From: an uncultured Eubacteriales bacterium | Lineage (GTDB): Bacteria > Acidobacteriota > Aminicenantia > Aminicenantales > Saccharicenantaceae | Assembly (NCBI GenBank): GCA_964423315.1 | Contig: CAYREO010000012.1 | Location: forward strand, 15,534 to 79,533 | Direction of reading: 5' to 3' | DNA length: 64,000 nucleotides | Shown here: positions 30,117-62,959 of the stretch, piece by piece | How positions within the stretch are numbered: position 1 is the stretch's first letter | Layout: every line of letters starts with the position of its first letter | Translations under genes and position numbers: made by a program | The notes under the pieces: generated by a model | Databases searched by the model: none | What the model was told of the DNA's origin: nothing | The model's input: only the letters and a program-made list of their open reading frames with translations

Positions 30117-32312
30117 ATGAAAAAAACCGCCGTCACCGCCGTCCTCGCCGCCGGCCTCGGGCTGCTCCTGCTCTCTGCGACGGCCTGCAAGTCCGAGACC
30201 CCCGCGCCGCCGGCCGCGCCCCTGTCCGAAGCCGCCGCCGCGGCCGCCGCCGAGGGCAACCCGTTCTTCGCTCCCTACGGCACGCCCTTCGACGTCCCGC
30301 CCTTCGACCGCATCAAGAACGAGCACTTCCTTCCGGCCATCGAGGAAGGCATCCGGCGCGAGCAGGCCGAGATCGAGGCCATCGTCGCGAACCGCAAGGC
30401 CCCGACCTTCGAGAACACGATCGCCGCCCTCGACCGCACGGGGATCTTCCTCTCGGAAGTCAACGCCGTCTACGGCGCCCTCCAGGGCGCCCACACGAAC
30501 AAGGAGCTCCAAGCCCTGGCCCGCCAAACAGCGCCCCTGCTGGCCGCCCATCGCGACAACATCGCCCTCAACGAGAAGCTCTTCGCCCGGGTCAAGGCCG
30601 TTTACGACAAGCGCGCCAAGCTCAAGCTCGACCGCGAGGAGCTCTTCCTCCTCGAGAACACCTACCGCGAATTCGTCCGGGCCGGCGCCCTGCTCGGCGA
30701 GGCCGACAAGGCCCGCCTCCGGGACCTCAATCAGGGGCTGTCGCTCGAGAGCGTGAAGTTCGGCGAGAACGTCCTGGGCGAGATCAACGCCTTCCAGCTC
30801 GTCATCGACAGGAGGGCCGACCTCGCCGGACTCCCACCGTCGGTCGTGGCCATGGGCGCCGAGGCCGCCAAGCAGGCCGGGCTTCCGGGCAAGTGGCTGT
30901 TCACCATCCACGTCCCGAGCATGACCCCCTTCCTGACCTATTCCGAACGGCGCGACCTCCGCGAGAAGCTCCACCGGGCCTACTTCATGAAGGGAGACAA
31001 CGACAACGAGCGCGACAACAAGGAGATCGCCAAGAGGATCGCCGACCTGCGCCGCCAGCGGGCCGTGATCCTCGGCTACCCGAACCATGCGGCCTTCGTC
31101 CTCGAGACCAACATGGCCAAGACGCCCGAGCGGGTCGACGCCTTCCTGCGGCAGCTCTGGGAGCCGACCGCCGTCAAGGCCCGCGAGGAGGCCGCCGCCC
31201 TCCAGGCCCTCATCGACCGCGGGCGCGGAAGGTTCGAGCTCGCGTCCTGGGACTGGTGGTATTACACCGAGAAGCTCCGCCAGGAGAAGTACGCCCTCGA
31301 CGACTCCGCCCTGCGGCCCTACTTCAAGCTCGACAACGTCCGCGAGGGGATCTTCGCCCTGTGCGGGAAGCTCTACGGGCTGAGGTTCATCGAGCGGCCG
31401 GAGCTGCCGCGCTACCATCCCGAGGTCCAGGTCTATGAGGTCCAGGAGGCCGACGGTTCGCACACCGGCATCCTCTACATGGATTTCCATCCGCGGCCGA
31501 GCAAGCGCGCCGGAGCCTGGTCGGGGGGCTTCCGGAGGGCTTGGTACGACAAGGGCGTGCGCGTGCCGCCCGTCGCGACCATCGTCTGTAATTTCACGGC
31601 GCCGACGGCCGACGCCCCGTCGCTGCTTTCGACCGACGAGGTCGAGACCTTCTTCCATGAATTCGGCCACGCCCTGGCGACCCTTTTCTCACAGGGCCGC
31701 TACCGCAGCCGCTCCGTGGCCCGCGATTCCGTGGAGCTGCCGTCGCAAATCATGGAGCACTGGGCCTTCGAGCCGGAGCTGCTGGCCCTGTACGCCAAAC
31801 ACTACGTGACGGGCGAGGTCATTCCCGCCGAGCTCGTCGACAAGCTCGAGCGGAGCAGCCTCTTCAACCAGGGTTTCATCACCGCGGAATACCTCGCGGC
31901 CTCGATCCTCGACATGGCCTGGCACACCCTGCCGAACCCGTCGGAGATCGATGTCCGGCAGTTCGAGAAGGACCTGCTGGACGGGATCGGCCTCATCCCG
32001 GCCATCCAGCCGCGATATCGATCGACGTACTTCAACCACATCTTCAGCGGCGGGTACTCAGCCGGCTACTACGCCTACATCTGGTCGGAAGTGCTGGATT
32101 GCGACGCCTACGAGGCCTTCAAGGAGAAAGGCATCTTCGACCGGGCCACGGCCGAGTCGTTCCGCAAGAATGTCCTCGAGCCCTTCGGCACCGAGGACCC
32201 CATGACCCAGTACGTTCGCTTCCGCGGCGCCGAGCCCAAGATCGACGGCCTGCTCCGCAAGCGCGGTCTTGGGGTCAAGCGCGGTCTTGGGGTCGGACCA
32301 ACAAATAATTAA
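30117..32312 (+). CDS. dcp: M3-family peptidase (Dcp-like), lipoprotein; C-terminus reads into a type B repeat
   Basis: NPFFAPYGTPFDVPPF, SWDWWYY, HEFGH, DSVELPSQIMEHW, GYSAGYYAYIWSE. Confidence 0.93.
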   Translation: MKKTAVTAVLAAGLGLLLLSATACKSETPAPPAAPLSEAAAAAAAEGNPFFAPYGTPFDVPPFDRIKNEHFLPAIEEGIRREQAEIEAIVANRKAPTFENTIAALDRTGIFLSEVNAVYGALQGAHTNKELQALARQTAPLLAAHRDNIALNEKLFARVKAVYDKRAKLKLDREELFLLENTYREFVRAGALLGEADKARLRDLNQGLSLESVKFGENVLGEINAFQLVIDRRADLAGLPPSVVAMGAEAAKQAGLPGKWLFTIHVPSMTPFLTYSERRDLREKLHRAYFMKGDNDNERDNKEIAKRIADLRRQRAVILGYPNHAAFVLETNMAKTPERVDAFLRQLWEPTAVKAREEAAALQALIDRGRGRFELASWDWWYYTEKLRQEKYALDDSALRPYFKLDNVREGIFALCGKLYGLRFIERPELPRYHPEVQVYEVQEADGSHTGILYMDFHPRPSKRAGAWSGGFRRAWYDKGVRVPPVATIVCNFTAPTADAPSLLSTDEVETFFHEFGHALATLFSQGRYRSRSVARDSVELPSQIMEHWAFEPELLALYAKHYVTGEVIPAELVDKLERSSLFNQGFITAEYLAASILDMAWHTLPNPSEIDVRQFEKDLLDGIGLIPAIQPRYRSTYFNHIFSGGYSAGYYAYIWSEVLDCDAYEAFKEKGIFDRATAESFRKNVLEPFGTEDPMTQYVRFRGAEPKIDGLLRKRGLGVKRGLGVGPTNN

Positions 32313-32406
32313 TGTTTTCAATAAGATAAATGCCATTTCGGGCCGTCCTCAAACTGTACGCGGCACAATTTTGGCCCAAAAAACGAAGAGGTCGGGTCCC
32401 GTGTCT
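32289..32406 (-). repeat. Type B element (reverse orientation; far end approximate)
   Basis: GGGGTCGGACCA at 32289-32300; TTGA on the minus strand exactly 21 nt from TGGTCC. Confidence 0.85.
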
Positions 32407-32418
32407 GGAGTCCGAAAC

Positions 32419-35316: not shown

Positions 35317-35327
35317 AGAATGAAGAG

Positions 35328-35410
35328 GGGGTCAAATCTCCAATCATTAAATTTCATGCCGGCGAAACGATCGCGGAGCGTGAAAATTTAATGATTGGAG
35401 ATTTGACCCC
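35328..35410. repeat. Type A hairpin element, copy 3 (different spacer) between convergent genes
   Basis: GGGGTCAAATCTCCAATCATTAAATTT ... AAATTTAATGATTGGAGATTTGACCCC. Confidence 0.95.
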
Positions 35411-42156: not shown

Positions 42157-42182
42157 GACGATCCTCCTTAATATTGCGCGGT

Positions 42183-42911: not shown

Positions 42912-42959
42912 GGGCCCTCCTTCTATGGGCTGGGAGTTCGGCACATTGACCTTGCCGCG

Positions 42960-42989
42960 ATTATAATAAGCCGCCCGCCGCGTTGTCAA
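42960..42989 (-). promoter_or_regulatory. Consensus sigma70 promoter TTGACA-N18-TATAAT for the zinc-ribbon genes
   Basis: TGTCAA at 42984-42989 and ATTATA at 42960-42965 on the plus strand. Confidence 0.75.
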
Positions 42990-45930: not shown

Positions 45931-45968
45931 GGGACATTCGGCGCGCTAGAATAGCACTTCGCGCAGAG

Positions 45969-46050
45969 GGGGTCAAATCTTCAATCATTAAATTTTCCGG
46001 CGCTCCGGTGTCCGACGATCTGAAGAATTGAATGATTGAGGGTTTGACCC
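45969..46050. repeat. Type A hairpin element, copy 4 (right arm degenerate)
   Basis: GGGGTCAAATCTTCAATCATTAAATTTTC ... GAATTGAATGATTGAGGGTTTGACCC. Confidence 0.88.
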
Positions 46051-46461: not shown

Positions 46462-46693
46462 GGGACATGGTGAATGCTGCCCCAATTTCGCAGGTTGCTT
46501 TCATGGCGGGGGGCATGCCCCTCAGGTCCGTATCCTCAGCTTGCCGGCCGGTGCCGAGCTTCTCGCTCTGCCCTTCGACTCATCGTAAAAACGCCCTTAA
46601 AAACGCGATAATACGGCAAGCGCCAAACTGATGAGCAAGACCATGCAACAACTAACTCATTGAAAATAAAGATTATTCTGTGGTCCGACCCCC
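46462..46693 (+). repeat. Type B element (about 232 bp)
   Basis: GGGACAT left end; CTAA-CTCA-TTGA-N17-TGGTCCGACCCC right end; close homologue of 48298-48526. Confidence 0.92.
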
Positions 46694-48251: not shown

Positions 48252-48297
48252 GTGGACCTCCATGGGCGCGGCGTTTGCCGCCCATTATATAAAATTT

Positions 48298-48526
48298 GGG
48301 GACACAATACCTACTCCCCGATTTCGAAAATTGCTTTCACGGGGGGGCATGCCCCTCCGGTCCGTGTCCCCAGCTTGCCGGCCGGTGCCGAGCTTCTCGT
48401 TCCGCTTTTGGATTCATCGCAAAAATGCCCCTAAAAACGCGATTATGCGGCAAGCGCCAAGCTGATGAGCAAGACCATATAGCGACTAACGCATTGATAA
48501 TAAAAACCATTCTGTGGTCCGACCCC
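48298..48526 (+). repeat. Type B element (about 229 bp)
   Basis: GGGGACACAATACC left end; CTAA-CGCA-TTGA-N17-TGGTCCGACCCC. Confidence 0.93.
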
Positions 48527-48540
48527 GAATGGGGTAAAAT

Positions 48541-49335: not shown

Positions 49336-49350
49336 CAAAAGGAGGGTGTC

Positions 49351-49824: not shown

Positions 49825-50056
49825 CGCGCTTGAAGGACCGCGATTTTATGAGCAGAAGCTAAACTCCTCCCACCCGAGGCCGGCCATGATCGGCGAGCAT
49901 GCAAGGGGGACGATGTGCACTATGGATGGGCCCTCTGTACGACCATTCCCATTTTTGCCATTAAAAATGTGAAAAAAAGCCGCCTTCCAAACTGATGGGG
50001 CGATCTACCGCTGGGCTAACGAGTTGATAATAAAGAAAAAAGTGTGGTCCGACCCC
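49786..50056 (+). mobile_element. Hybrid element: type A arm at left, type B end at right (MITE-like, about 271 bp)
   Basis: GGGGTCAAATCTCCAATCATTAAA at 49786 with no partner arm; CTAA-CGAG-TTGA-N17-TGGTCCGACCCC ending at 50056. Confidence 0.8.
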
Positions 50057-50128
50057 CAAGGTTGACTTGCATGAGGGTGTTGGCTAAGCTTGGGTCATCA
50101 TCAGTCAGGAGCGTAAGGAGGAGCTTCC

Positions 50129-50974: not shown

Positions 50975-51112
50975 GGGACACCTTCTGGCTGCTGGCCGCA
51001 TTTCATCTTTTTAGCGGCTAAAACAAGGAAAAATCGGCTTCCGCAAGCTGATAAGGGCTGTTGCCGATAGATTATTATATTGAAAAACAATGAGATCGTG
51101 TGGTCCGACCCC
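50975..51112 (+). repeat. Type B element (about 138 bp) between convergent genes
   Basis: GGGACAC directly after the TGA; TTGA-N17-TGGTCCGACCCC. Confidence 0.85.
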
Positions 51113-51135
51113 AATCGAGACCGAGATAGGCTTAT

Positions 51136-52266: not shown

Positions 52267-52323
52267 GGATCCTCCTTCCCTTGGAGTCTTTCTGCTCGCT
52301 CTCCATTATCAATGTTTTGTTTT

Positions 52324-52602
52324 GGAGATACAATACCCTTTTCCGGATTTCACGGATTTCCCATGTGTGCGGGGCACACGCTGCCGATTCGCATCAGCCA
52401 ACACCTCTGCCTGCTGGCCTCACCTCGTCCTTTTGGGCAAGAAAGAAGGAGATACTGAGGTCCGGCCCCGATCAAGGCCCCCTATACGACCTCTCCTTTT
52501 TTGCCCTCAAAAAGGTGAAAATCAGGCGACCGCCAAACTGATGAGCAGATTCGCCACGGACCTAACGAGTTGATAATAAAGAAAAAAATGTGGTCCGACC
52601 CC
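52324..52602 (+). repeat. Type B element (about 279 bp)
   Basis: Degenerate left end GGAGATACAATACC; CTAA-CGAG-TTGA-N17-TGGTCCGACCCC. Confidence 0.88.
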
Positions 52603-53935: not shown

Positions 53936-54150
53936 CCTCCGCTTTTCTCAGCCCGCCGCTTTCTGAAGGATCATCTCGCGCCTCACGTCCGCCATCCGTC
54001 GCCCGGCGCCTTCCGCGCGCGCCCTCGCGCTCCGCGCTGTCGATCCGCCTGTTTGTCTCTTCCTGGCGCCCCGGCTCTTTGTCTCCGCCCGGACGCTCTT
54101 CGGCCCCTCGCCGTCCCTTAACGGGCGAAGCATCGTCAGCACCAGGGCTA

Positions 54151-54834
54151 TCACGCCTCCGGGTTATACCGGCCGGCCTTGCTCGTCGCGACCCCGTAGC
54201 GGGCCATCCCCGCCGCGACGATCAGCGCGCAGACGACGCCGTCGAGTACCGGAACGCCGAGCCGCTTTTCGAGTCTCTTATCGAGTCCGGCCAGCCCGGC
54301 GCAGCCCAGGACGATGACCTCGGCCCCGTCCTCGTCGACGGCCGCCCGCCCCGCCCGGAAAAACCTCTCCTCGAGGTCGCTCTCCGCCCCCTCCAGCCCC
54401 TCGACCTCCGGCGCCCGGACCGAAGCCAGCGCCCCCCTCAGCCCGTAGCGCTCGATGAGGGCCTCCTTGTTGGGGATCGAGCGCGCCGCGGTCGACAGGA
54501 CCGAGAACCTGTGCCCGAGCATGGTGGCCATTTTCATCGAGGCCTCGCCGATGCCGACGACGGGCTTGCGGCCGATCTCCTTCATCAGGTCCAGGTTCGG
54601 GTCGCAGTGGCAGGCGACGACGAAAGCGTCGAACGCCTCGTGGTTCTCCCGCAGCAGCTTGGCCATCCCCGGCGCGGCCAAGGCCTGGTCCTCGTAGGTG
54701 TCGATGAACCGCGGCGCCCCCGGCGTCGCCAGACACGCGACCTCGAACGCCCCTCCCGCGAAGGCCCGCGCCGCCTCCTCGATCCTCTGCGTCATGCCGG
54801 GGTCGCTGTTGGGGTTGATGATCAGGATCTTCAT
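54151..54834 (-). CDS. Hydantoin racemase / Asp-Glu racemase family protein
   Basis: MKILIINPNSD, VVACHCDP, VVGIGEAS, IVLGCAGLAG, VPVLDGV. Confidence 0.92.
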   Translation of the reverse strand: MKILIINPNSDPGMTQRIEEAARAFAGGAFEVACLATPGAPRFIDTYEDQALAAPGMAKLLRENHEAFDAFVVACHCDPNLDLMKEIGRKPVVGIGEASMKMATMLGHRFSVLSTAARSIPNKEALIERYGLRGALASVRAPEVEGLEGAESDLEERFFRAGRAAVDEDGAEVIVLGCAGLAGLDKRLEKRLGVPVLDGVVCALIVAAGMARYGVATSKAGRYNPEA

Positions 54835-56267
54835 GTCGCCCTCCTCTTGCCGGCCGTCCGGATGTATTCGCGCGTCCGGTCGGTGATGTCCGTGGCATAG
54901 GCGTTGCGTCCCTCGAGGCAGTCCTTCATCAAGGCGAAGAACACGCCGCTCAAGGCCAGGATGGCCGCGAGGTTCGGCAGGGCGCAGGCGCCCACGGCGA
55001 TATTGGCGAAGACCCACAGGCGGTCGACGTCGGCGAACCCGGCGAAAAGGACCCCCGGCACGAGATAGACCCAGCGCAGCCAGCGCATGGCCGCCCCGCC
55101 GAAGACGTGGGACGCGGCCGTCTCGAAGTAGATGAAGAACCCGATCTGGGTCGTCAGGCAGAACGTCAGGATGGAGAACGAGACGACGGCCGAGGCCGCC
55201 GCGGCCGGGAGCGAGGAGCGGAAGGCGGCCAGGACGAGCTCGATCCCCGTCCGCCCGCCGTCGAGGACACCCGTCGACAGGATGGCGAAGGCCGTGATCG
55301 AGCAGATGACGACGGTGTCGACGAAGACCTCGAACGCGCCCCACATCCCCTGCTGGAACGGATGCGGCGTGTCGGCGGTGGCGTGGGCCATGGGCGCCGT
55401 GCCGAGGCCGGCCTCGTTCGAGAGCATGCCCCGGGCCATGCCGTACTTGAGGGCCGCGGCGACGCTGCGGCCGGCGACCCCCGCGGCGGCGGGCACGGGC
55501 GAGAAAGCGTGGCCGACGATCATGGCCAGGACGGCCGGCGCCTTCCCGATGTTGAGAAGGAAGACGACGAGCCCGGCCGCGATGTAAACGAGGGACATGA
55601 CCGGAACCAGCCGCGCGCAGAACCCGCCGATGCGCCGGAGGCCGCCGAGGATGACCGCGCCCGCGACCACGGCGATGACCGCCGTCGTGATGTAAGGGTT
55701 GAGGCCGTAGCTCCCGAGGAAGGCCCGGCCGACGGTGTGGGACTGCAGGAGCGTCGCCGTGAACAGGGCGTTGACGATGACCCCGACGCTGAAGGCCTTG
55801 GCCAGCGGACCCCAGCCGAGGCCCTTGCGGATGTAGTGCATCGGGCCGCCGCGGACCGGGCCGTCGCCGCCTTCGGTCGTGCCCGCGTCGCGATAATGGA
55901 CGGCCAGGGTGATCTCGGCCGTCTTGGTCATCATCCCCAGGAAGGCCAGGACCCACATCCAGAAGACCGCCCCTGGGCCGCCGAGCGACAGGGCCGTAGC
56001 CACGCCGGCCATGTTGCCCATGCCGACCGTGCCGGCCAGGGCCGTCGAGACGGCCTGAAAAGGGGTCAGGCGGCCGGCTCGGGCGTCCGCGCGCTTGCCG
56101 AGGACCGTGCCGGCCGTGCGCCGGAGGATGAAGCCGAATTTGCGGACCTGGAAGAAGCGCGAGCGCAGGGTGAAGAACAGGGCCGTCGCGGCGATGAAGG
56201 CCGTCGTCCACGGCCCCCAGAGGAGGGCGTCGATGCGGGCGGCGACAGCGAGCAGTTGTTCTATCAT
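54831..56267 (-). CDS. Alanine/glycine:cation symporter (AGCS) family
   Basis: ALAGTVGMGNMAGVA, GGPGAVFWMW, GGPMHYI, SNEAGLGTAP, FVDTVVIC. Confidence 0.93.
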   Translation of the reverse strand: MIEQLLAVAARIDALLWGPWTTAFIAATALFFTLRSRFFQVRKFGFILRRTAGTVLGKRADARAGRLTPFQAVSTALAGTVGMGNMAGVATALSLGGPGAVFWMWVLAFLGMMTKTAEITLAVHYRDAGTTEGGDGPVRGGPMHYIRKGLGWGPLAKAFSVGVIVNALFTATLLQSHTVGRAFLGSYGLNPYITTAVIAVVAGAVILGGLRRIGGFCARLVPVMSLVYIAAGLVVFLLNIGKAPAVLAMIVGHAFSPVPAAAGVAGRSVAAALKYGMARGMLSNEAGLGTAPMAHATADTPHPFQQGMWGAFEVFVDTVVICSITAFAILSTGVLDGGRTGIELVLAAFRSSLPAAAASAVVSFSILTFCLTTQIGFFIYFETAASHVFGGAAMRWLRWVYLVPGVLFAGFADVDRLWVFANIAVGACALPNLAAILALSGVFFALMKDCLEGRNAYATDITDRTREYIRTAGKRRAT

Positions 56268-56352
56268 CGGACCGGGCCGGCCTCGGGCCGCGCCGCAAGC
56301 TTATCCAGTCGCCGGAGCCGTTGTCAAGCCAAGAAGGCCTCCGTTCAGCTTT

Positions 56353-56469
56353 GTGAAGGATATCACCCCTAGCCCCCCGGCCCCCCGGGAACCAGTCCCG
56401 ACGGTTCCCCCGTCGCCAAAGCGACGGGTCCCCCTCCGCTACGGGGGTCTTCGGGGCGACATCCTTCAC
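56353..56469. repeat. 117-bp GC-rich palindromic element with 17-bp imperfect terminal inverted repeats
   Basis: GTGAAGGATATCACCCC / GGGGCGACATCCTTCAC (15/17); inner hairpin CGTCGC-CAAA-GCGACG. Confidence 0.7.
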
Positions 56470-56597
56470 CGCCTCACTCCGGCCTTCCAATGCGGAAAAC
56501 GGGGACAGGCGGGGAAAAGGCGGGGGACACGAATCGGAAGTACCTGCGGCCGCTTCTTTCGTTAAGCCTAGCGGAGGGCTTCCTGGGATTCAACGTT

Positions 56598-58004
56598 TTA
56601 GGCGAGCGTGCGGTGCAGATAACGCCCGCGGCCGGGGCGTCCGACAAGATCTTCGCCGTCGACGATGAGCTCGCCGCGCGACCAGACCTTGAGGACCTTG
56701 CCGATGACGGGGAGGCCCTCGTAGGCCGACCAGTCCGCGGCCATGTGGAGCGTGTCGCGGCTCATGATCCACTCGGCCGTCGGGTCGAACAGGACGACGT
56801 CGGCGTCGGCGCCGGGCGCGAGGCTCCCCTTGCGGGGCGCGAGGCCGAAAAGCCGGGCCGGGGCGGTGGACGCGATATCGACAAGGCGCGTGAGAGGAAG
56901 CCCGCGCTTGACGACCCCTTCCGAATGGAGAAGCGGCAGGCGGACCTCGACGCCCGGGATGCCGTTCGGGCAGAGGTCGAAGCGCTCGGCGCCCATCAGC
57001 TTGGCCTGCCACGAATAGGCCGCGTCGTCGGAGCTGACCTGGGCGATGCGTCCGTCGGCCACGGCCTCCCAGAGCCGGTCGCGGACGGCGGCGGTCCGCA
57101 GCGGCGGCGAGCAGATCCATTTGATGCCGTCGTCGCGCGCCAGCATGTCCTCGGTGAAGACGAGGTAGTGGGTGCAGGTCTCGGCGCGGACGTCGAGCCC
57201 TTCGCGGCGGGCCGCGGCGACGAGGTCGATGCCCTCGGCCGTGGCCATGTGGACGATGAACAGGCGGCCGCGCGTCTCGCGGGCGGCGCCGATGGCCCGG
57301 GCGATGGCCGCGTTCTCGACCTCGGGCGGACGGCTGCGGGCGTGGTAGATGGGCGCGACGCGCCCCTCGGCGACGAGGCGCGGGATAGTCCTTTCGAGGG
57401 CGTCGTTGTCCTCGGCGTGGACGAGGAGCACGCCGCCGGCCCGGCGCAGGGCGTCGAGGATCGCCGCGAGCTCCTCGGGCCCGACCATCAGGCCCTCCTG
57501 GCGGTAGGTCAGGTAGCACTTGACGGTCGGGGCGCCGGCTTCGACGATGGCCGGGATGCCGGCGAATGTCTCGGCGGTGGGGCGGGTGATGACCGGGTGG
57601 ACGCCCCAATCGATGAGGGCCTTGCCCGCGGCCTCGTCTTTCTTGCGGTCGATCGTCCGGAGAAGGGGCTCGCCGTCCTCCTGGTTCGAGAAATCGATGA
57701 CCGAGGTCACCCCGCCGAAGGCCGCGGCGCGCGTGCCGCTCTCGTAGTCGTGGACGCTGACCGTGCCCATGAAGGCGTCGTTGAAGTGGACGTGGGTGTC
57801 GACGGCGCCGGGGAGGACGAGCAGTCCCGCGGCGTCGATGACGCGGTCGATGGGGCCGATGGAGACAAACGCGCCGCCGCCTTCGAGGCGCCCGCCGCAC
57901 GCGGCGATCGTCTCGCCCTCGATGAGAAGATCGCCGGGCGAGGAGGATTCGGACGTGACGATCGTGCCGCCGCGGATGAGGGTCCGGGGCGCGCGAGGGC
58001 TCAT
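56598..58004 (-). CDS. hydA: Dihydropyrimidinase / D-hydantoinase
   Basis: PGAVDTHVH, AAAFGGVT, VKCYLTY, LVHAED, IVHMAT, AETCTHYL, CSPPLR, SSDD, PNGIPGVE. Confidence 0.92.
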   Translation of the reverse strand: MSPRAPRTLIRGGTIVTSESSSPGDLLIEGETIAACGGRLEGGGAFVSIGPIDRVIDAAGLLVLPGAVDTHVHFNDAFMGTVSVHDYESGTRAAAFGGVTSVIDFSNQEDGEPLLRTIDRKKDEAAGKALIDWGVHPVITRPTAETFAGIPAIVEAGAPTVKCYLTYRQEGLMVGPEELAAILDALRRAGGVLLVHAEDNDALERTIPRLVAEGRVAPIYHARSRPPEVENAAIARAIGAARETRGRLFIVHMATAEGIDLVAAARREGLDVRAETCTHYLVFTEDMLARDDGIKWICSPPLRTAAVRDRLWEAVADGRIAQVSSDDAAYSWQAKLMGAERFDLCPNGIPGVEVRLPLLHSEGVVKRGLPLTRLVDIASTAPARLFGLAPRKGSLAPGADADVVLFDPTAEWIMSRDTLHMAADWSAYEGLPVIGKVLKVWSRGELIVDGEDLVGRPGRGRYLHRTLA

Positions 58005-58026
58005 GGCGTCCGCTCTCCCGCGGCCC

Positions 58027-59460
58027 TCATCGCCCCGACTTCTCCACCATACGCACGGCTTCGGCGAAGATCTCCAGTCCCTTGCGGGCGTGGGCCTCGG
58101 TGACGACCAAGGGCGGCAGGAAGCGGGCGACGTTGAAGTAGTGGCCGCCGACCTCGATGAGCAGGCCGCGGCGATGGCAGGCCGCGCGGACCTTGGCGGC
58201 GAGCTCGGGCGCGGGCTTGCGGGTGGACTTGTCCTCGACGAACTCGACGCCGAGCATCAGTCCGCGGCCGCGGGCCTCGCCGATGATGGCCGAGTCCCTC
58301 TCGAGCGCCTTGAGGGTTTCGAGCATCGCCCGGCCCAGGCGTTCGGCGCGGGCGGCCAGGCCGCGGTCGAGCATGAAGCGCAGGGACGCGGCGCCGGCGG
58401 CGTAGGCCACGACATTGCCCCGGAAGGTGCCGATGTGCTTGCCGCGCGGGAGCGTGTTGAGACGCTCCTTGTAGGCGGTCGCGGAGATGGGGAAGCCCAG
58501 GCCGCCCAAGGCCTTGCTCATGGTGACGATGTCGGGGACGGCGCCCGAGTGCTCGAAGGCGAAGAACTTGCCGGTGCGGCAGAAGCCGGCCTGGATCTCG
58601 TCGACGATGAGCAGGACCTCGTGCTTGTCGCAGATCGCGCGGACGGCCGCCAGCCAGCCGTCCGGCGGGACGATCGAGCCGCCCTCGCCCTGGACGGCCT
58701 CGACGATGACCGCCGCGGGGCGGGCGATCCCGGAGTGCGGGTCCTCGAGCTTGTGGTCGAGATAGGCGGCGCAGTGGAGATCGCAGGTTTCGGGCGACTT
58801 GGCGAAGGCGCAGCGGTAGCAGTAGGCGTAGGGCAGGAAGTGGACCTCGGGAAGGAGAGGCAGGAAATCGGCGCGGAAGGGCTCGCCGCTCGTCAGCGAC
58901 AGGGCGCCGGCGGTCATGCCGTGGTAGGAGCCTTCGAAGGCGATGATCGGGATGCGGCGGGTGTTGTACTTGGCCAGCTTGACGGCGCTTTCGACGGCGT
59001 CCGAGCCGGTCGGGCCGGCGAAGAAAAGGCGCGAGAGCTCTGGGGGGAGGACCATGCGCAGGGCTTCGACGAGCGCCCGGCGGGGCGGGCTGGGGATGTC
59101 GAGCGTGTGGGTCAGGTCGTCCAGCTGGGCGCGGGCGGCCTCGAGGACGTCGGGGTGGGAGTGGCCGACGTTGAGGACCCCGGCCCCGCCGAAAAAGTCG
59201 ATGTAGACGTTGCCGTCGACGTCCTCGACCGTGGCCCCGCGGCCGCGGCGCAGGGCCATGGGCAGGCCGCGCGGGTAGGAGACGGCCGAGCTTTCGTGGC
59301 GTTCCTGGAATTCGAGGAAGTCGCGGGACTCCGGCCCGGGGGGAGGCGAGGCGATGAGGGGGGCGCGGGGGTCGGAGAGCCGCTCGAAGATCTCTTCGGG
59401 GGCCGTTTCGGGGGAGGGTGCGGGATCATGGGAGGATGCGAGGGGCTTTCGTTCGTCCAT
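58027..59460 (-). CDS. Class III aminotransferase, diaminobutyrate--2-oxoglutarate transaminase (Dat/EctB)-like
   Basis: [51 protein letters not shown]. Confidence 0.85.
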
Positions 59461-59575
59461 GGGGGCCTCGTGTCTTTATCAGGTAGGCCGCGGAGTGTGC
59501 ACTTCGACGGGAACGGGGCGCGCACATCCCGCCGGCCGAGCAAATTGTCGTGCCCGCGGCGAGAATTGTCAAGAA

Positions 59576-59617
59576 GCAAGAAGGGGAGCAAGAAGGGGAG
59601 GTTTGACCCTCTCCCCG
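59576..59617. repeat. Collapsed type A-like remnant or terminator at the toxin 3' end
   Basis: GCAAGAAGGGGA x2 then GGTTTGACCCTCTCCCC; both outer ends of type A with the arms missing. Confidence 0.5.
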
Positions 59618-60052
59618 CTATAGCGTCGGGTCGACGGGCTCGAGGAACGGGAAGCGGTGGAAATCCGTGTCCCGCGTGTAGATCCTCTTGACGCCGTGCT
59701 CGCGCATCAGGACGGCGGTGTGGGCGTCATAGATCAGGTTGCCGCGCAGGTGGGATCCGTTCTCCAGCACCTCGGCGGCCACCCGGGCGTGTCGCTCGGA
59801 GGGGACGAGCAGGGCGAACGTAGGGGAAGCCAGGATGGCTTCGACGAAGCCCCAGGCCTGGGCTACGCCCCACGGCTGACGGAAGACCCGCGGATGGGTG
59901 ATGACCCGCAGGAACTCGTAGAGGATGCCCCAGGTCGAGTACCAAGGCGTGGACTGACGTCGCCATTCTTCGAGCTTTTTCCGGGAGGCAGCGTGGAAAG
60001 GCGAGCTCTTGTCGGCGGCGTAGACGAAGATATTCGTGTCGACGACGAACAT
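59618..60052 (-). CDS. vapC: PIN-domain toxin
   Basis: VVDTNIFVYA, LYEFLRV, IYDAHTA, IYTRDTDF. Confidence 0.92.
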   Translation of the reverse strand: MFVVDTNIFVYAADKSSPFHAASRKKLEEWRRQSTPWYSTWGILYEFLRVITHPRVFRQPWGVAQAWGFVEAILASPTFALLVPSERHARVAAEVLENGSHLRGNLIYDAHTAVLMREHGVKRIYTRDTDFHRFPFLEPVDPTL

Positions 60053-60279
60053 CAGCGGCCCTCCATCGCCTGATAGAGGGCGTCGCGGTCGGCGATCTCG
60101 ACCAGGGCGCCGCCGCTCGTGAACGACGGCAGGGGAGGCATGGGGGAGGCCGCCTCCTTCTCGGCGAGCAGGCGCCGGAGGGCGGATTCCACGAGCTCGG
60201 ACATGGTGCAGCCGCGGCGGGCCGCTTCCTTCTTGAGAAGGGTCATCACGGAATCGTCGATGTTCAAGGTCGTTTTCAT
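60052..60279 (-). CDS. vapB: Ribbon-helix-helix antitoxin
   Basis: MKTTLNIDDSVMTLLKKEAARRGCTMSELVE; TGATG overlap with toxin. Confidence 0.88.
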   Translation of the reverse strand: MKTTLNIDDSVMTLLKKEAARRGCTMSELVESALRRLLAEKEAASPMPPLPSFTSGGALVEIADRDALYQAMEGR

Positions 60280-60280
60280 C

Positions 60281-60311
60281 CATATAACCATACATAATAT
60301 ATGGCTATATG
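60281..60311. promoter_or_regulatory. Candidate vapBC operator palindrome
   Basis: CATATAACCATA-N7-TATGGCTATATG (11/12) immediately upstream of the antitoxin start. Confidence 0.65.
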
Positions 60312-60469
60312 TCAAATCGTTTGATATGGATGCGCGCTCCGGCTCCCGATCATGGCCGGTCACGGTCGTTCGGGCCGCTATCCTCGCTGTGCTCCATGAT
60401 GTCGATTCGTTCACTTAATAAAGACGCAGCGCCCCCTGGCATATTCTCACGGGTAGAAACAAAATCCGC

Positions 60470-60620
60470 GAGGTTGATTGGGGTATATGTCAGGCGGGGG
60501 GGAGGAGCTGCATTCTTTTTGCCCGAAAAAACATGCAAATCCGGCGTCCGGCAAGCTGTTGAGCAGATCGCCATGCTAGCTAAATAATTGATAATAAATA
60601 AAAATATTAGGTCCGACCCC
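60470..60620 (+). repeat. Type B element (left end not discernible)
   Basis: CTAA-ATAA-TTGA-N17-AGGTCCGACCCC; about 150 bp homologous to 62811-62959. Confidence 0.88.
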
Positions 60621-62583
60621 GGCCGAAGGCCGTTTCCCAGGTGGCCCAGGGGCCGCCGAAGGGGCGCAGGCCGAGGTCCACGGGGCTGGTCGGGGCCGGC
60701 TCGAGGGCCTCGAAGACCTCGCGGGCGTGGGCCTGGGCCCGGGCGTAGAGCGACGCGGCGCGCCCGTAGAGGGCCAGCGCGATATTCTTTGCGGCGTTCA
60801 CACCTTCTCTGCCCCCCTTGACCCGCGATTCCGCTGCATCGCCTTCGCCCTCGCCCAGCTTGCCTCCTCCCGCGCGGCTCCCTCCGGCCGCTTCCATCTC
60901 CAGCTCGGCCCGGTTGAAGGCGTTGCGGCCCTCGAACATCTCGGCCACGGCCAGGCCGTAGAGCGCCTTGAGGTCGCCGTAGCCCGCGTCGCGATAGTTC
61001 AGGTGCATCAGCTTCGCGTAGGCGTTGGCGATCTCCTCCTCGGCCGCCGCCTTGGCCGCTTCCGCCACCTCGGCCGGTCCCTTGGCCAGCCGCAGCCGGT
61101 AGAACGTGTGGGTCCCCGCCGCGTAGCGGTAGGTAGGATTCATCATCGATCCGTCGCCGGCCTTCGACCCGTGCAGGACCCGCCCCGGCGGCCCCGTGCA
61201 GATGTGGGCCACGCCCTCGTCGCCGTCGTGCGGCTCGACCACGGCCGTCCACAGGTTCGTCGGCCGGCAGAACATGGCCTCCCAGCCCCCGGCCGGCGGC
61301 CACGGCGGCGGCGCGCCCGGGAAGCGCAGGACCATCTTGGCGAACTCGACGTCGATCTCGCCGTGGTAATTGTTGAACAGGTCCCAGATCATCTTGTTGC
61401 GCGGCGCGGCGTAGGCGCCGTACCCTCCGTGCCCGCCGACGAACCCGCCCTCCTTGGTCACCTGCATATCCGGGTGGAGGTAGTTGTTGGTCGAGAACAT
61501 GAAGTCCCGCTCCCCGAAATCGCCGGGCCGGCGCACGGCCTGGACGGCCGCCGTCTTCTCCACGATGCAGGCCTCGCCGCGCACGTCGACGAAGTGGAAG
61601 TTCTCGGGGACGTTGATCTGCCACGGCATGATCATATCGCGGGCGGCGAAGGCCCCGTCGGCGAAGCGCACGATGTAGGGCAGCGAGCAGGCCCAGCCGA
61701 TCCCGTAGCCCTCGTCCTCGGGGCGGGGCGAGCCGCCGCCGCCGGAATTGCCCAGGAACAGGCCGCGGTTGTTCATCAGGAAGTGGTCGCCGATCTCGCC
61801 GGCGTCGGCCCCGCACATGTAGGCGTTGCCGCGGTCCGGGAAGGCGACGATGACCACGGCGTGGGCCACGTCGGGCGTGTCGAGGGTGTCGAGCCCGATG
61901 AGCCGGCCGTCCTTGGTCGCGCTCCCCCAGGCCGAGGCCACCGAGCAGCGCTTGGGCGGCAGGGCGTCGCGCTCGGCGCCCTCCGGGTAGACCGAGGTCG
62001 CCGGATCGGGCAGCGTGCCGTTGATGAGCAGGACGTCCGTGTAGGTCATGGGGTAACCGGCGTGCGTCGCGCCGTCGGCCATGCCGCGCATGAAGTCGAT
62101 CCACTCCGGCGTGTAGCGGCGGATGAACGACTGGTTGGCCCGCAGCGCCTGCATCACCTCGTCGCGGCTGAAGCGCCGCAGGGCCGCGGCCCACTTGTCC
62201 TCGCGGGTCCGGTCGATGTAGGCGCAGGCCTGCTCGCCGTACTGGAAGCCCATCTCGTAGTCGGAGCCCTTGAGGATGACGACCGGCAGGATGGACGGCG
62301 GCAGCGAGTCGCGCGACGGATCGTCGGCGGGAACGCGGGCGGAGAGGAAGGGGTCCGTCGAGGCCGGCGCGGAGGACGGGTTGCCGCGCGCGGATGTCAT
62401 CGGTTTCGAGAAAGGCGCGCGCGAGAAGGCGCCCGGTCCCGACCGCGAGGCGTTCGGCCCCTCCGACGGCCCGGCTTGAAGGGCCGGGAGGATGAACACG
62501 ACGATGACGACGGCTATGACGGCCAGGATGATCAGGATGATGGCGAATATGCCCCAGGCGGCGGCGATGCGGTTGGTCTTCAT
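60607..62583 (-). CDS. C45-family Ntn-hydrolase/acyltransferase-like protein with N-terminal membrane anchor; stop supplied by type B element
   Basis: ATG 62583 after AAGGAGG; LKGSDYEMGFQYG, R|CSVASAWGSATKDG, STNNY. Confidence 0.75.
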   Translation of the reverse strand: MKTNRIAAAWGIFAIILIILAVIAVVIVVFILPALQAGPSEGPNASRSGPGAFSRAPFSKPMTSARGNPSSAPASTDPFLSARVPADDPSRDSLPPSILPVVILKGSDYEMGFQYGEQACAYIDRTREDKWAAALRRFSRDEVMQALRANQSFIRRYTPEWIDFMRGMADGATHAGYPMTYTDVLLINGTLPDPATSVYPEGAERDALPPKRCSVASAWGSATKDGRLIGLDTLDTPDVAHAVVIVAFPDRGNAYMCGADAGEIGDHFLMNNRGLFLGNSGGGGSPRPEDEGYGIGWACSLPYIVRFADGAFAARDMIMPWQINVPENFHFVDVRGEACIVEKTAAVQAVRRPGDFGERDFMFSTNNYLHPDMQVTKEGGFVGGHGGYGAYAAPRNKMIWDLFNNYHGEIDVEFAKMVLRFPGAPPPWPPAGGWEAMFCRPTNLWTAVVEPHDGDEGVAHICTGPPGRVLHGSKAGDGSMMNPTYRYAAGTHTFYRLRLAKGPAEVAEAAKAAAEEEIANAYAKLMHLNYRDAGYGDLKALYGLAVAEMFEGRNAFNRAELEMEAAGGSRAGGGKLGEGEGDAAESRVKGGREGVNAAKNIALALYGRAASLYARAQAHAREVFEALEPAPTSPVDLGLRPFGGPWATWETAFGRGRT

Positions 62584-62773
62584 GGGTCCCTCCTTCTTCA
62601 ACTCCGGCGGATGAAGCCCTCCGGGGGCGGGGGCTCTCTAATGGAGGTTTTAACAGAGGCCGCGGGGGAATTCAAGGAAACCGCCACCGGCCGCTCGTCA
62701 CCGGGGACAGGGAGTTCGCGAAGCTCGGCCGGACTGTCGCGATCGACTGGCTCTCATGGAGGTGGAATAGAAC

Positions 62774-62959
62774 GGGGACATGTACCGCAGGTATGGGTCC
62801 AGGCATTTTTCGAGGTATTGATCGGGCATATGTAGATCGGGGGGGAGCCGCATTTTTTTTGCCCAAAAAACATGCAAATCCGGCGCCCGGCAAACTGTTG
62901 GCCAAGTCGTCCTGATCGCTAAAGAGCTGATAATAAATGAAAATTTCTGGTCCGACCCC
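62774..62959 (+). repeat. Type B element (about 186 bp)
   Basis: GGGGACAT left end; CTAA-AGAG-CTGA-N17-TGGTCCGACCCC. Confidence 0.9.

What the first reader, a model, noticed from the sequence alone, without database searches (positions are those of the whole stretch)
32289..62959. Type B repeat end has invariant geometry in all eight copies
Seen: every copy has (T/C)TGA starting exactly 21 nt before (T/A)GGTCCGACCCC (TTGA at 46660, 48494, 50024, 51080, 52570, 60588, CTGA at 62927, and 32321 on the minus strand). Six of eight have CTAA-N4 before the TGA box, and a CAARCTG(A/T)T motif usually lies further upstream. The intervening bases and total length (about 120-280 bp) vary widely. Left ends are mostly GGG(G)ACA(C/T). 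Inference: conserved spacing with free sequence is the signature of a protein-bound recombination or cleavage site under selection. The GGGG(A/T)C ends recall, from memory, the short terminal inverted repeats reported beside HUH TnpA-REP-like endonucleases.
Basis: partly seen in the sequence, partly recalled or inferred. Interest (0 to 1): 0.75.

Follow-up and report, generated by a model that had tools for sequence, protein, structure and literature searches.

The report
Repeat ends tied to tyrosine transposase
The eight "Type B" ends are real, fixed-geometry copies of a dispersed intergenic repeat that, in related Aminicenantes genomes, flanks a single-copy REP-type (HUH/tyrosine) transposase gene, so they are a new family of an already described kind of bacterial repeat.

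Summary
Observation confirmed: YTGA-N17-WGGTCCGACCCC occurs exactly eight times at the stated coordinates, against 0 expected. The fixed geometry reaches further than reported. The copies share a core of about 105-108 nt, and CAARCTG starts exactly 69 nt from the tip in 7 of 8 copies.

A gap-tolerant scan of genome and metagenome collections found the motif in Aminicenantes-like contigs. 73 of 74 real copies have the same 11-nt gap, while the spacer sequence is nearly randomised.

In those genomes the units lie in most intergenic gaps. They occur as singlets or as inverted doublets of about 120 or 226-231 nt that fold as long hairpins.

Inverted units also flank a roughly 260-280 aa Y1/HUH gene. 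It matches Pfam Y1_Tnp and the NCBIfam REP-associated tyrosine transposase model, and its closest structure is E. coli TnpA_REP (4ER8). The gene usually sits at a conserved chromosomal position.

The window has no such gene, and its copies are diverged singlets.

One extra finding: about 9% of ends carry a tandem duplication of the last 1-6 nt plus 7-14 nt of flank, against 0.2% at random positions.

Verdict: new member of a known kind; moderate interest.

The parts
32289..32400 (-). Unit c32 (singlet). Tip GGTCCGACCCC at 32299-32289. Its AT box is diverged (TTGAAAACATT) and it lacks CTAA-N4 and CAARCTG.
   Evidence: The stop codon of the M3 peptidase ORF 30117-32312 lies inside the terminal repeat.
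32259..32294 (-). Tandem duplication GACCCCAAGACCGCGCTT x2, made of the last 6 nt of unit c32 plus 12 nt of flank. It is in frame with the M3 peptidase C-terminus (KRGLGV x2).
46585..46692 (+). Unit c46, the 108-nt core.
   Evidence: (family D1). The tip lies 12 nt from the stop of the convergent M28 peptidase gene 46704-48263.
46462..46584 (+). Upstream module of c46 (GGGACATGG ... GGGGGGCATGCCCC ... GGTCCGTATCCTC). It is shared only with c48. It is not an inverted partner, because the whole 232 nt does not fold as a hairpin.
   Evidence: 213-nt alignment, 85% identity with c48; z = 0.04.
48419..48526 (+). Unit c48, the 108-nt core.
48298..48418 (+). Upstream module of c48. GGGGACAC ... GTGTCCCC forms a local stem of about 72 nt, and GGGGACAC matches GGGGWSAS 8/8.
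   Evidence: local stem in the MFE and centroid structures; whole element z = -0.5.
49949..50056 (+). Unit c50. It has the hairpin CATTTTTgccattAAAAATG, CAAACTG at -69, and CTAA-N4-TTGATAATAAA.
51004..51112 (+). Unit c51 (diverged AT box). It sits between two convergent genes.
52320..52469 (+). Degenerate unit in direct orientation upstream of c52, ending GGTCCGGCCCC.
   Evidence: (family D3).
52495..52602 (+). Unit c52. The stop codon (TAG, 52562-52564) of the PLP-decarboxylase ORF lies in its CTAA box.
60513..60620 (+). Unit c60 (homology with c62 extends to about 60469). The stop codon of the C45-family ORF 60607-62601 lies inside the terminal repeat.
62852..62959 (+). Unit c62 (CTGA variant). 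Its tip lies 45 nt upstream of an ATG. It is followed by an extended -10-like TGATATACT that is conserved at the orthologous site in L020.

Best explanation
**What the copies are.** Each "Type B" copy is a singlet of a dispersed, non-coding repeat unit of about 105 nt. Read towards the tip, the unit has:
- a T-run/A-run hairpin, about 100-76 nt from the tip;
- a box at -69 (CAARCTG) or, in the sister subfamily, at -72 (TYTAAGS);
- TAA-N4-(T/C)TGATAATAAA at -40 to -23;
- a variable spacer;
- CTG(T/A)GGTCCGACCCC(A) at the tip.

**The partner enzyme.** The terminal 33-41 nt is the inverted repeat that flanks a single-copy Y1/HUH enzyme in related genomes. That enzyme is of the REP-associated tyrosine transposase type, called "TIRYT" in the literature.

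**Most likely mechanism.** The enzyme recognises the unit and nicks and rejoins one DNA strand at or a few nucleotides inside the GGGG/CCCC tip. Inverted doublets would present the two terminal repeats as a duplex stem in single-stranded DNA. In this way units are copied into intergenic DNA. The boxes must keep their register because one protein or complex contacts them together. TTGA to WGG is 21 nt, about two helical turns. So substitutions accumulate between boxes while indels are purged.

**Shown.** The geometry, the dispersal, the doublet hairpins, the flanking of the Y1 gene, and the fold and motifs of the Y1 protein.

**Inferred.** That the enzyme binds or cleaves these ends, where it cuts, and that the window's diverged singlets were once mobile.
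For: - **Window pattern.** 8 matches against 0 expected. The shared core is 105-108 nt and ends exactly at the tip.
- **Spacing is invariant across species.** A scan allowing a gap of 1-25 nt returned 73 copies with gap 11, one real exception (L028, gap 16) and three chance hits. 87 of 92 AT boxes sit at the canonical offset, and the spacer differs at 5.86 of 11 positions. CAARCTG lies at exactly -69 in 7 of 7 window copies that have it.
- **Doublets.** 33 inverted doublets were found, of 117-128 or 213-265 nt (mode 226-231). They fold with the two ends paired, z = -4 to -17.
- **Internal hairpin.** A perfect T-run/A-run hairpin of at least 6 bp is present in 48 of 137 units against 3 of 222 control windows. 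It has 28 different self-complementary arm sequences.
- **The Y1 gene in L035.**
  - L035:8126-8911 (261 aa, low GC) lies between inverted ends at 7946(-) and 8942(+), in a contig with a unit in every intergenic gap.
  - It hits Pfam Y1_Tnp at 36.5 bits (cut-off 23).
  - It hits NCBIfam REP_Tyr_transpos at E = 6.7e-20, against 21 bits for the IS200 model.
  - HUH (NHIH) and Tyr (YIDMNM) are invariant in 30 homologues.
  - The only PDB sequence hit is 4ER8 TnpA_REP.
  - The AlphaFold2 model (pLDDT 83.6) has 4ER8_A as its top Foldseek hit (E = 5.6e-7, TM 0.68), ahead of the IS608 and ISDra2 TnpA proteins.
- **Other contexts.** Six further homologue contexts (51-86% identity) are flanked by the same ends, including one with a window-type CAAACTG unit (L079). 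Five of seven contexts share neighbours (tag, DUF4382, esterase).
- **Copy number.** Only one homologue was found in about 500 kb of unit-rich DNA.
- **Literature.** TIRtrons and TIRYTs have TIRs carrying GGGGWSAS, with dispersed TIR families occurring as singles, dimers and groups (PMC3733652). TIRYT corresponds to subclass 2.1, with the consensus GGGG[AT][CG]A[CG] (PMC6006769).
- **Sign of activity at the tip.** Tip-plus-flank tandem duplications occur at 12 of 135 ends against 6 of 2960 random sites. They are strongest next to the Y1 gene itself (L035 both flanks; L073). They are polymorphic between strains with an identical Y1 protein (L073 against L074).
Against: - No Y1 gene is present in the window (tblastn). 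The window's own genome could not be retrieved. The link to the enzyme therefore rests on related contigs.
- The window copies are only 60-87% identical to each other, and none is an inverted doublet. They may be long-dead remnants.
- The family lacks the classical REP hallmark: there is no GT[AG]G foot, and the terminal 33 nt are not palindromic.
- The NCBIfam score (71.5 bits) is below the curated cut-off of 80.
- The Tyr motif is Y-x-D-x-N-M, not the Y---NP of class 2 TnpA_REP. The protein also differs from the published Acidobacteria TIRYT group.
- No empty-site comparison was obtained, so insertion and mobility have not been demonstrated.
- No direct binding or cleavage data exist.
Confidence: 0.8

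Rival explanations
1. The units are miniature derivatives (MITEs) of a DDE transposon. A Tn3-family element is one candidate, because the tip GGGGTCGGACC(T/A)CAG resembles the Tn3 inverted repeat GGGGTCTGACGCTCAG and the conserved end is about 38-41 nt long.
For: - The resemblance to the Tn3 repeat is recalled from memory.
- Other genomes have inverted pairs with the GGGG tips facing outward.
- The conserved part is 33-41 nt long.
Against: - The inverted pairs inspected have no target-site duplications.
- No recurrent DDE transposase was found in about 500 kb of unit-rich loci or in the window.
- The ends flank a Y1/HUH gene in seven contexts.
- The terminal repeat has no match in plasmid records.
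Confidence: 0.04
2. The units are kept by the host as cis-acting architectural or regulatory sites, whatever first spread them. One possibility is a binding site for an IHF/HU-like protein, since the reverse complement of CTAA-N4-TTGATA is TATCAA-N4-TTAG, which fits WATCAANNNNTTR. They could also act as 3'-end or promoter-proximal elements.
For: - The family consensus matches all nine specified positions of the IHF consensus at a fixed register, 28-40 nt from the tip. 30 of 133 ends match it perfectly.
- Units sit at the same gene boundaries in different species: the M28 peptidase, and the gene at 63004.
- Three ORFs use stop codons inside the AT-rich box.
- E. coli BIMEs recruit IHF (PMC3479197 abstract).
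Against: - Orientation relative to neighbouring genes is not consistent. Three tips face gene starts and five face gene ends. The unit next to the M28 peptidase gene has the opposite orientation in L020.
- The IHF consensus comes from Proteobacteria and is untested in this lineage.
- This idea does not explain the Y1 association or the tip duplications.
Confidence: 0.1
3. The units encode a family of small structured RNAs. The box CUGAUGAG, for example, recalls the hammerhead ribozyme core.
For: - The unit has several conserved boxes and a hairpin with compensatory changes.
- CTGATGAG is present in three window copies.
Against: - No Rfam family matches at the gathering threshold.
- RNAalifold finds no consensus structure beyond trivial pairs.
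- The hairpin is weak in most copies (mean z = -1.5).
- There is no consistent promoter or terminator.
- CTGATGAG is not conserved across copies.
Confidence: 0.03
4. The units are attC-like recombination sites of an integron-like cassette array. Seven same-orientation copies separate genes over 46.6-63 kb, in a segment whose gene content differs from a related genome.
For: - All seven copies are on the + strand and lie 1-8 kb apart.
- In L020/L034, the M28 peptidase and the orthologue of the gene at 63004 are 3.2 kb apart. In the window they are 14.7 kb apart, with different genes between them.
Against: - There is no integrase in the window or in the loci.
- There are no R''/R' inverse core sites.
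- The genes between the units are ordinary, long and in both orientations.
- Units are dispersed genome-wide in related contigs and are tied to a Y1 gene.
Confidence: 0.03

Closest known systems
TIRtrons / TIRYT and their dispersed TIR repeat families (Di Nocera, De Gregorio & Rocco 2013, PMC3733652). These correspond to TnpA_Y1 subclass 2.1 of Quentin et al. 2018 (PMC6006769).
   Same: - A RAYT-like Y1/HUH gene, longer than classical RAYTs, is flanked by long terminal inverted repeats unrelated to GTAG REPs.
- The tips start GGGGWS. GGGGTCGG matches GGGGWSAS at 7 of 8 positions, and the window's GGGGACAC left ends match at 8 of 8.
- The same TIRs are dispersed in the genome as singles, dimers and groups.
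   Different: - The protein motifs differ. This family has NHIH, FWEDRYH and Y-x-D-x-N-M. Subclass 2.1 has NHVH/NH[YF]H and YIELNP. The published Acidobacteria TIRYT group has HVH, WQK and NPV.
- The C-terminal part of about 120 aa has no Pfam match, whereas HTH-like similarity was reported for subclass 2.1.
- The repeats are very dense, with nearly every intergenic gap occupied in some contigs. The published families are described as "moderately abundant".
- The unit is a rigid module of about 105 nt with several boxes and an internal hairpin.
REP/REPIN-RAYT systems (Nunvar 2010; Bertels & Rainey 2011, PMC3116915; Ton-Hoang 2012, PMC3333891; Bertels 2017, PMC5581495)
   Same: - A single-copy Y1 gene, mostly in a conserved neighbourhood, is flanked by the repeat in inverted orientation (REPtron-like).
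- The repeats are over-represented in extragenic space.
- Inverted doublets fold as hairpins, alongside singlets.
- The closest structure is E. coli TnpA_REP (4ER8).
   Different: - There is no GT[AG]G foot, and the conserved 33 nt are not a palindrome.
- The units (about 105 nt) and doublets (about 226-231 nt) are several times longer than REPs (20-40 nt).
- The tip carries an invariant 11-mer plus an AT box at fixed spacing.
IS200/IS605 insertion sequences (TnpA Y1; IS608, ISDra2)
   Same: - The catalytic domain has the same HUH/Y1 fold (Foldseek hits 2VJV, 2A6O and 2XM3).
- Single-strand cleavage next to structured ends is the expected chemistry.
   Different: - The gene is not multi-copy. 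It has a conserved chromosomal position and no tnpB partner.
- Its ends are inverted repeats rather than distinct left and right subterminal hairpins.
- The NCBIfam IS200 model scores only 21 bits, against 71.5 bits for the REP-associated model.
Tn3-family inverted repeats and Tn3-derived miniature elements (TIMEs)
   Same: Both have a GGGGTC tip and an end of about 38-41 nt. An inner TTAG/TAAG-like element is also shared, but this resemblance is recalled from memory.
   Different: - There is no DDE transposase and no 5-bp duplications.
- The ends are associated with a Y1 enzyme instead.

Membership tests
TIRtron / TIRYT-associated TIR repeats | A RAYT-like Y1 (HUH + Tyr) gene flanked by long terminal inverted repeats that are not GTAG REPs | tested here: met
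   - Met in related contigs: L035 7946(-)/8942(+), L072 3697(-)/4701(+), L073 3872(-)/4921(+), L076 3816(-)/4862(+), L077 2825(-)/3834(+), L078 2885(-)/3821(+), L079 2429(-)/3906(+).
- There is no such gene in the window itself.
TIRtron / TIRYT-associated TIR repeats | TIR tip motif GGGGWSAS | tested here: inconclusive
   - The right tip GGGGTCGG matches 7 of 8 positions (G instead of A at position 7).
- The left ends GGGGACAC (c48) match 8 of 8.
- GGGACAT (c46) and GGGGACAT (c62) match partly.
- Type A GGGGTCAA matches 7 of 8.
TIRtron / TIRYT-associated TIR repeats | The same TIR dispersed in the genome as singles, dimers or groups | tested here: met
   - The window has 8 singlets plus one degenerate copy.
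- The loci have 33 doublets and 82 single ends.
TIRtron / TIRYT-associated TIR repeats | Protein signature of subclass 2.1 (NHVH/NH[YF]H, W[EQ], YIELNP/Y[IV]HLNP, HTH-like C-terminal domain) | tested here: not met
   - This family has NHIH, WE and YIDMNM.
- The C-terminal domain has no Pfam hit.
- The Acidobacteria TIRYTs in the supplement have different motifs.
- It is therefore related to subclass 2.1, but not demonstrably the same subclass.
REP/REPIN-RAYT | Short palindromic REP with a 5' GT[AG]G foot | tested here: not met
   There is no GTAG foot. The terminal 33 nt are non-palindromic apart from GGTCCGACC.
REP/REPIN-RAYT | Inverted doublets that fold as hairpins (REPINs) | tested here: met
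   - In related contigs, 33 doublets fold with z = -4 to -17 and with their ends paired.
- In the window the feature is not met: c46 and c48 have z = 0.04 and -0.5.
REP/REPIN-RAYT | Y1 gene present as a single copy and inherited vertically | tested here: inconclusive
   - One homologue was found in about 500 kb of loci.
- The neighbourhood (tag, DUF4382, esterase) is conserved in 5 of 7 contexts at 51-86% identity.
- No complete genome or phylogenetic congruence test was available.
REP/REPIN-RAYT | Repeats over-represented in extragenic space | tested here: met
   - All window copies are intergenic or overlap only the last codons of ORFs.
- L035 has a unit in every gap between 3.0 and 11.1 kb.
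IS200/IS605 | Multi-copy element with distinct left and right subterminal hairpins, a TnpA of about 150 aa, and often tnpB | tested here: not met
   - The protein is 261-280 aa with an extra C-terminal domain.
- Its ends are inverted repeats, and no tnpB is present.
- The IS200 model scores 21 bits.
Tn3-family MITE (TIME) | 5-bp target-site duplications and a cognate DDE TnpA | tested here: not met
   There are no duplications flanking doublets and no DDE gene associated with the ends.
Any of the above | The enzyme binds and cleaves the repeat end | not testable with these tools
   This needs EMSA and cleavage assays.

The most novel reading that the evidence does not exclude
The Y1 enzyme does more than copy units. 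It may repeatedly nick a few nucleotides inside the GGGG/CCCC tip and so generate tandem duplications of tip plus flank. These would remodel gene ends and upstream regions, as in the KRGLGV x2 tail of the M3 peptidase. The units would also mark the junctions of a variable gene segment (46-63 kb here, against 3 kb in a relative). On this reading, the rigid 105-nt module is a host-integrated platform for local genome editing or gene shuffling, not just a selfish repeat.
Probability: 0.15. Interest if true: 0.7.

Novelty: new member of a known kind. Interest (0 to 1): 0.45.

Why it matters
RAYT/TIRYT enzymes are widespread domesticated transposases. Their activity on long-TIR repeats has never been shown biochemically. 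This family offers an unusually well-defined substrate:
- an invariant 11-mer tip;
- an AT box two helical turns away;
- further boxes at fixed distances;
- natural doublet hairpins.

It also shows tandem duplications that start 1-6 nt inside the tip and are strongest next to the enzyme gene. These look like a footprint of the cleavage site, which would make binding and cleavage directly testable.

The work also explains a dense repeat class in Aminicenantes, an uncultured lineage. There the repeats overlap gene ends and supply stop codons, which matters for gene calling and MAG assembly.

Tried and rejected
- **Rfam and tRNA.** Rfam at gathering thresholds on the whole window and a tRNA scan found nothing.
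- **Sigma-70 or ECF promoter reading of TTGA-N17-GTCCGA.** Rejected, because orientation relative to genes is inconsistent.
- **Hammerhead core CUGAUGAG.** Not conserved and without Rfam support.
- **Tn3-like inverted repeat or TIME.** Rejected: no duplications and no DDE gene. BLAST of the end against plasmids found nothing, and a viral-contig scan found nothing.
- **Integron attC and dif/Xer sites.** No matching core sites and no recombinase.
- **Retrieving the window's own contig.** An exact-protein look-up was not on record.
- **Recurrent genes next to units.** ORF clustering found only orthologous housekeeping genes. The Y1 gene was found by inspecting the one inverted pair about 1 kb apart, in L035.
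- **Weak Y1 hit in L056.** The tblastn hit (E = 8e-4) was inspected and judged spurious.
- **Empty-site search.** A search for orthologous sites lacking a unit gave no clean case. The M28-adjacent units in the window and in L020 have opposite orientation.
- **Consensus RNA structure.** RNAalifold on 61 units found none.
- **Window copies c46 and c48 as REPIN-like doublets.** Rejected.
- **PDB search.** phmmer with the single protein found nothing. Only the profile search and the fold search reached 4ER8.
Full report
**1. The observation**

The pattern YTGA-N17-WGGTCCGACCCC occurs eight times in the window, at exactly the coordinates given. None is expected from 100 dinucleotide-preserving shuffles.
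- The exact 11-mer has one more hit, at 41317. It lies inside the low-complexity C-terminal coding region of ORF 40101-41333 and has no AT box, so it is chance.
- A ninth, degenerate end (GGTCCGGCCCC) lies at 52437-52469, in direct orientation 133 nt upstream of the 52570 copy.
- CTAA-N4 precedes the TGA box in six of eight copies, as stated.
- CAARCTG is present in seven of eight copies.
- All-against-all alignment shows that the copies share a core of about 105-108 nt that stops at the tip (family D1). The "variable total length" comes from upstream material shared only within pairs (c46/c48 213 nt, c50/c52 128 nt, c60/c62 154 nt).
- The window has about 66% GC. It has no Rfam match and no tRNA.
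- The copies lie between ordinary genes: M3, M14, TldD, M48 and M28 peptidases, metK, a methyltransferase, a PLP decarboxylase, an alanine symporter, a VapC toxin and a C45-family hydrolase.
- Three ORFs end on stop codons inside the AT-rich part of a unit (32310-32312, 52562-52564, 60607-60609).

**2. Is the spacing really constrained?**

I scanned public collections with TGATAATAAA-N{1,25}-GGTCCGACCCC, so that any gap from 1 to 25 nt would be found.
- The genome collection gave 22 loci and the metagenome collection gave 49.
- Over all loci plus the window, 73 matches have gap 11. One real copy has gap 16 (L028). Three matches have other gaps (L001, L008, L018) and none of the shared upstream sequence, so they are chance.
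- I then collected ends using only the tip 11-mer (at most 1 mismatch) plus AT-richness. Of 141 unique ends, 92 have a recognisable AT box, and 87 of those sit at the canonical offset.
- The 11-nt spacer differs at 5.86 of 11 positions between copies, with 75 distinct spacers among 87.
- The spacer is not entirely free. Positions 12-15 from the tip (CTG[T/A]), 17-18 and 20 are semi-conserved. The first flanking base is A in 80% of ends.
- Host records are Ca. Aminicenantes, Saccharicenans and Acidobacteria MAGs, plus a few differently labelled MAGs.
- L013 ("Eubacteriales") and L014 ("Planctomycetota") are nearly identical over the compared stretch, so at least one of those two labels must be wrong.
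- The window is 86% identical in DNA to VGJC01 (Ca. Aminicenantes) around the M28 peptidase gene.

**3. Anatomy of the unit**

Sixty-one non-redundant units fall into two subfamilies with the same layout.
- **Hairpin.** A hairpin with a T-run on the 5' arm and an A-run on the 3' arm ends 75-90 nt from the tip.
  - It is present as a perfect stem of at least 6 bp in 48 of 137 units, against 3 of 222 control windows.
  - It has 28 different arm sequences, each matching its own partner.
  - In the best-kept copies the stem is 11-15 bp and is closed by CTTAGA/TCTAAG (L012, L019, L043).
  - Over all copies the hairpin is weak (mean z = -1.5).
- **Box 2.** CAARCTG lies at -69 in the window's subfamily. 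TYTAAGS lies at -71 to -73 in the other subfamily.
- **Terminal part.** This is TAA-N4-(T/C)TGATAATAAA, then the spacer, then CTG(T/A)GGTCCGACCCC(A).
- **IHF-like box.** The reverse complement of the TAA-N4-TTGATA part, TATCAA-N4-TTA, fits the IHF consensus WATCAANNNNTTR at all specified positions, 28-40 nt from the tip. 30 of 133 ends match it perfectly, all but one in a single register. I treat this as a lead only.

**4. Organisation elsewhere**

- In the other contigs, ends often come as inverted pairs with the GGGG tips outward. There are 33 doublets in two size classes, 117-128 nt and 213-265 nt (mode 226-231). There are also 82 single ends.
- The doublets fold as long hairpins with the two terminal repeats paired (z = -4 to -17).
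- The doublets inspected have no flanking direct duplications.
- In the window all copies are singlets. The 229- and 232-nt elements c48 and c46 do not fold as hairpins (z = -0.5 and 0.04). Their upstream half is a separate module. In c48 it forms a local 72-nt stem, GGGGACAC...GTGTCCCC.

**5. The partner gene**

- Clustering all ORFs of the loci found no recurrent transposase.
- Contig L035 has a unit in every intergenic gap between 3.0 and 11.1 kb. It also has one inverted pair about 1 kb apart (7946(-), 8942(+)), which encloses a low-GC ORF of 261 aa.
- That ORF matches Pfam Y1_Tnp (36.5 bits, cut-off 23).
- It matches the NCBIfam REP-associated tyrosine transposase model (E = 6.7e-20; 71.5 bits, cut-off 80). 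The IS200 model scores only 21 bits.
- It has 7185 homologues of about 260-280 aa in metagenomes, some named RayT.
- In 30 of them the HUH histidines (NHIH) and the tyrosine (Y-x-D-x-N-M) are invariant.
- A profile of these sequences hits only E. coli TnpA_REP (4ER8) in the PDB, weakly (E = 0.15).
- An AlphaFold2 model (pLDDT 83.6) has 4ER8_A as its best Foldseek match (E = 5.6e-7, TM 0.68). IS608, ISDra2 and IS200 TnpA follow.
- Six further homologue contexts (51-86% identity) were fetched. All have the same ends flanking the gene, and in five of the six the ends are on both sides.
- L079 has a window-type (CAAACTG) unit on its left. L077 and L078 carry complete units, with hairpin, on both sides.
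- Five of the seven contexts share neighbours: methyladenine glycosylase, DUF4382 and an esterase.
- Only one homologue occurs in about 500 kb of unit-rich DNA, and none occurs in the window.
- Taken together, this is the REPtron-like arrangement of a single-copy gene that mostly keeps its chromosomal neighbourhood.

**6. Comparison with what is known**

- Di Nocera et al. (PMC3733652) described RAYT-like genes flanked by long TIRs rather than by GTAG REPs. They named them TIRtrons and TIRYTs.
- Many of those TIRs share the motif GGGGWSAS. In some species the TIRs form "moderately abundant" dispersed families of singles, dimers and groups.
- Quentin et al. (PMC6006769) equate TIRYT with TnpA_Y1 subclass 2.1, quote the consensus GGGG[AT][CG]A[CG], and found no REP-like structures near those genes.
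- The tip here (GGGGTCGG) matches the motif at 7 of 8 positions. The left ends GGGGACAC match at 8 of 8.
- The differences are:
  - the protein has NHIH/WE/Y-x-D-x-N-M instead of the class 2 Y---NP signature;
  - it differs from the published Acidobacteria TIRYT group;
  - its C-terminal part of about 120 aa has no Pfam match;
  - the repeat unit is a rigid multi-box module of about 105 nt, with an internal hairpin, at very high density.
- I therefore file it as a new member of a known kind. It works like a REPIN-RAYT system, but it fails the REP definition: there is no GT[AG]G foot and no palindromic core.

**7. Mechanism**

- **Shown.** The fixed register of at least four boxes over about 70-100 nt, the near absence of indels, doublet hairpins that pair the terminal repeats, and a Y1/HUH gene bracketed by the units.
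- **Inferred.**
  - The enzyme recognises the terminal repeat and cuts and rejoins one strand at the tip, as E. coli TnpA_REP does on REPs (PMC3333891, PMC3479197).
  - Its catalytic domain may contact the tip while its C-terminal domain contacts the AT box.
  - The TTGA to WGG distance of 21 nt is two helical turns, which would put both boxes on one face of a duplex or hairpin stem.
- **Possible footprint of the cut.**
  - 12 of 135 ends carry a tandem duplication that starts 1-6 nt inside the tip, usually at (G)ACCCC, and includes 7-14 nt of flank. Only 6 of 2960 random positions do.
  - In the window the example is GACCCCAAGACCGCGCTT x2 at 32259-32294. It duplicates KRGLGV at the end of the M3 peptidase.
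  - The duplications are strongest beside the Y1 gene: a triple repeat on the left and a double on the right of L035, and a multi-copy array in L073.
  - They differ between contigs that encode the identical Y1 protein (L073 against L074), so they are recent.
  - I could not derive their mechanism. Site-specific nicking followed by fill-in, or rejoining to a sister copy, would fit.

**8. What remains open**

- The window's genome could not be retrieved, so whether it still has the enzyme is unknown.
- The window copies are only 60-87% identical to each other and may be inactive remnants.
- No empty site was found, so insertion has not been demonstrated.
- The seven + strand copies between 46.6 and 63 kb lie in a segment whose gene content differs from VGJC01. 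The M28 peptidase and the gene at 63004 are 14.7 kb apart here and 3.2 kb apart there. This may mean no more than that repeats accumulate in flexible regions.

Noticed in passing
window 28328-28418, 29085-29175, 35319-35409, 45960-46050; half copy 49781-49814; degenerate tip near 59599(-): "Type A" elements are 91-nt near-perfect hairpins, (G)AAGARGGGGTCAAATCTCCAATCATTAAATTTTC-loop-reverse complement. The tip GGGGTCAA matches GGGGWSAS at 7 of 8 positions. They look like short doublets of a second TIR family, possibly served by the same or a paralogous Y1 enzyme. The loops of the copies at 28328 and 29085 are reverse complements of each other.
   Followed up: partly
window 28300-28345, 28410-28440, 46040-46075: Type A tips also carry tip-plus-flank tandem duplications: GAAGAAGGGGTCAAAC / GAAGAAGGGGTCAAATC, CCCTTCTTGG / CCCTTCTTGA, and TTTGACCCTTCTGA / TTTGAACCCTTCTT. 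This is the same phenomenon as at Type B tips.
   Followed up: partly
window 46462-46584 and 48298-48418: A module of about 120 nt is shared by c46 and c48 (85% identity). It starts GGG(G)ACA, contains the palindrome GGGGCATGCCCC, and ends GGTCCGT(G/A)TCC(C/T)C, which resembles a degenerate tip. In c48 it forms a 72-nt stem, GGGGACAC...GTGTCCCC. It may be a third related repeat type.
   Followed up: partly
window 46704-63004, compared with L020/L034 1-5866: The M28 peptidase and the orthologue of the gene at 63004 are 3.2 kb apart in the related MAG VGJC01, with two unrelated genes between them. In the window they are 14.7 kb apart. Units sit at most gene junctions of this variable segment in both genomes.
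   Followed up: partly
window 30117-32312, 52562-53935(-), 60607-62601(-): Three ORFs (M3 peptidase, PLP decarboxylase, C45-family hydrolase) run into a unit and stop on a codon supplied by its AT-rich box. Their annotated C-termini are therefore probably repeat-derived.
   Followed up: partly
window 62960-62975; L020 about 990-1011; L003 flank: Just outside the tip, upstream of orthologous genes, lies a conserved extended -10-like element: A(A/T)TATG(A/T)TATA(A/C)T, which fits TGnTATAAT.
   Followed up: no
window 59618-60295(-): A VapC-type PIN toxin gene (TIGR00028, E = 2.8e-28) lies just left of unit c60. The listed ORF is long for a VapC, with the PIN domain only at residues 82-223, so the true start is probably further in. 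No antitoxin was examined.
   Followed up: no
window 41404-42989(-) and 38618-40063(+): A cluster of zinc-ribbon / double-zinc-ribbon proteins lies next to an M48 peptidase that has an N-terminal zinc ribbon.
   Followed up: no
L013 and L014 (CAZGJS010000015.1 and JAZDLH010000165.1): Two species-representative MAGs, labelled Eubacteriales and Planctomycetota, share nearly identical sequence (2 differences in the 55 nt after the tip) across a unit and its flanks. This points to a wrong label or to contamination in at least one of them. Several other "Eubacteriales" MAGs carry the Aminicenantes-type repeat.
   Followed up: no
L073 4921-5010; L074 about 175; L035 7918-7956 and 8946-8967: Multi-copy arrays of tip-plus-flank repeats sit right beside the Y1 gene: AATTGCCCCC x4-5, GACCCCAGCA x2-3, and GCATTTGGGGTT x3. 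Copy number differs between contigs that encode the identical protein.
   Followed up: partly
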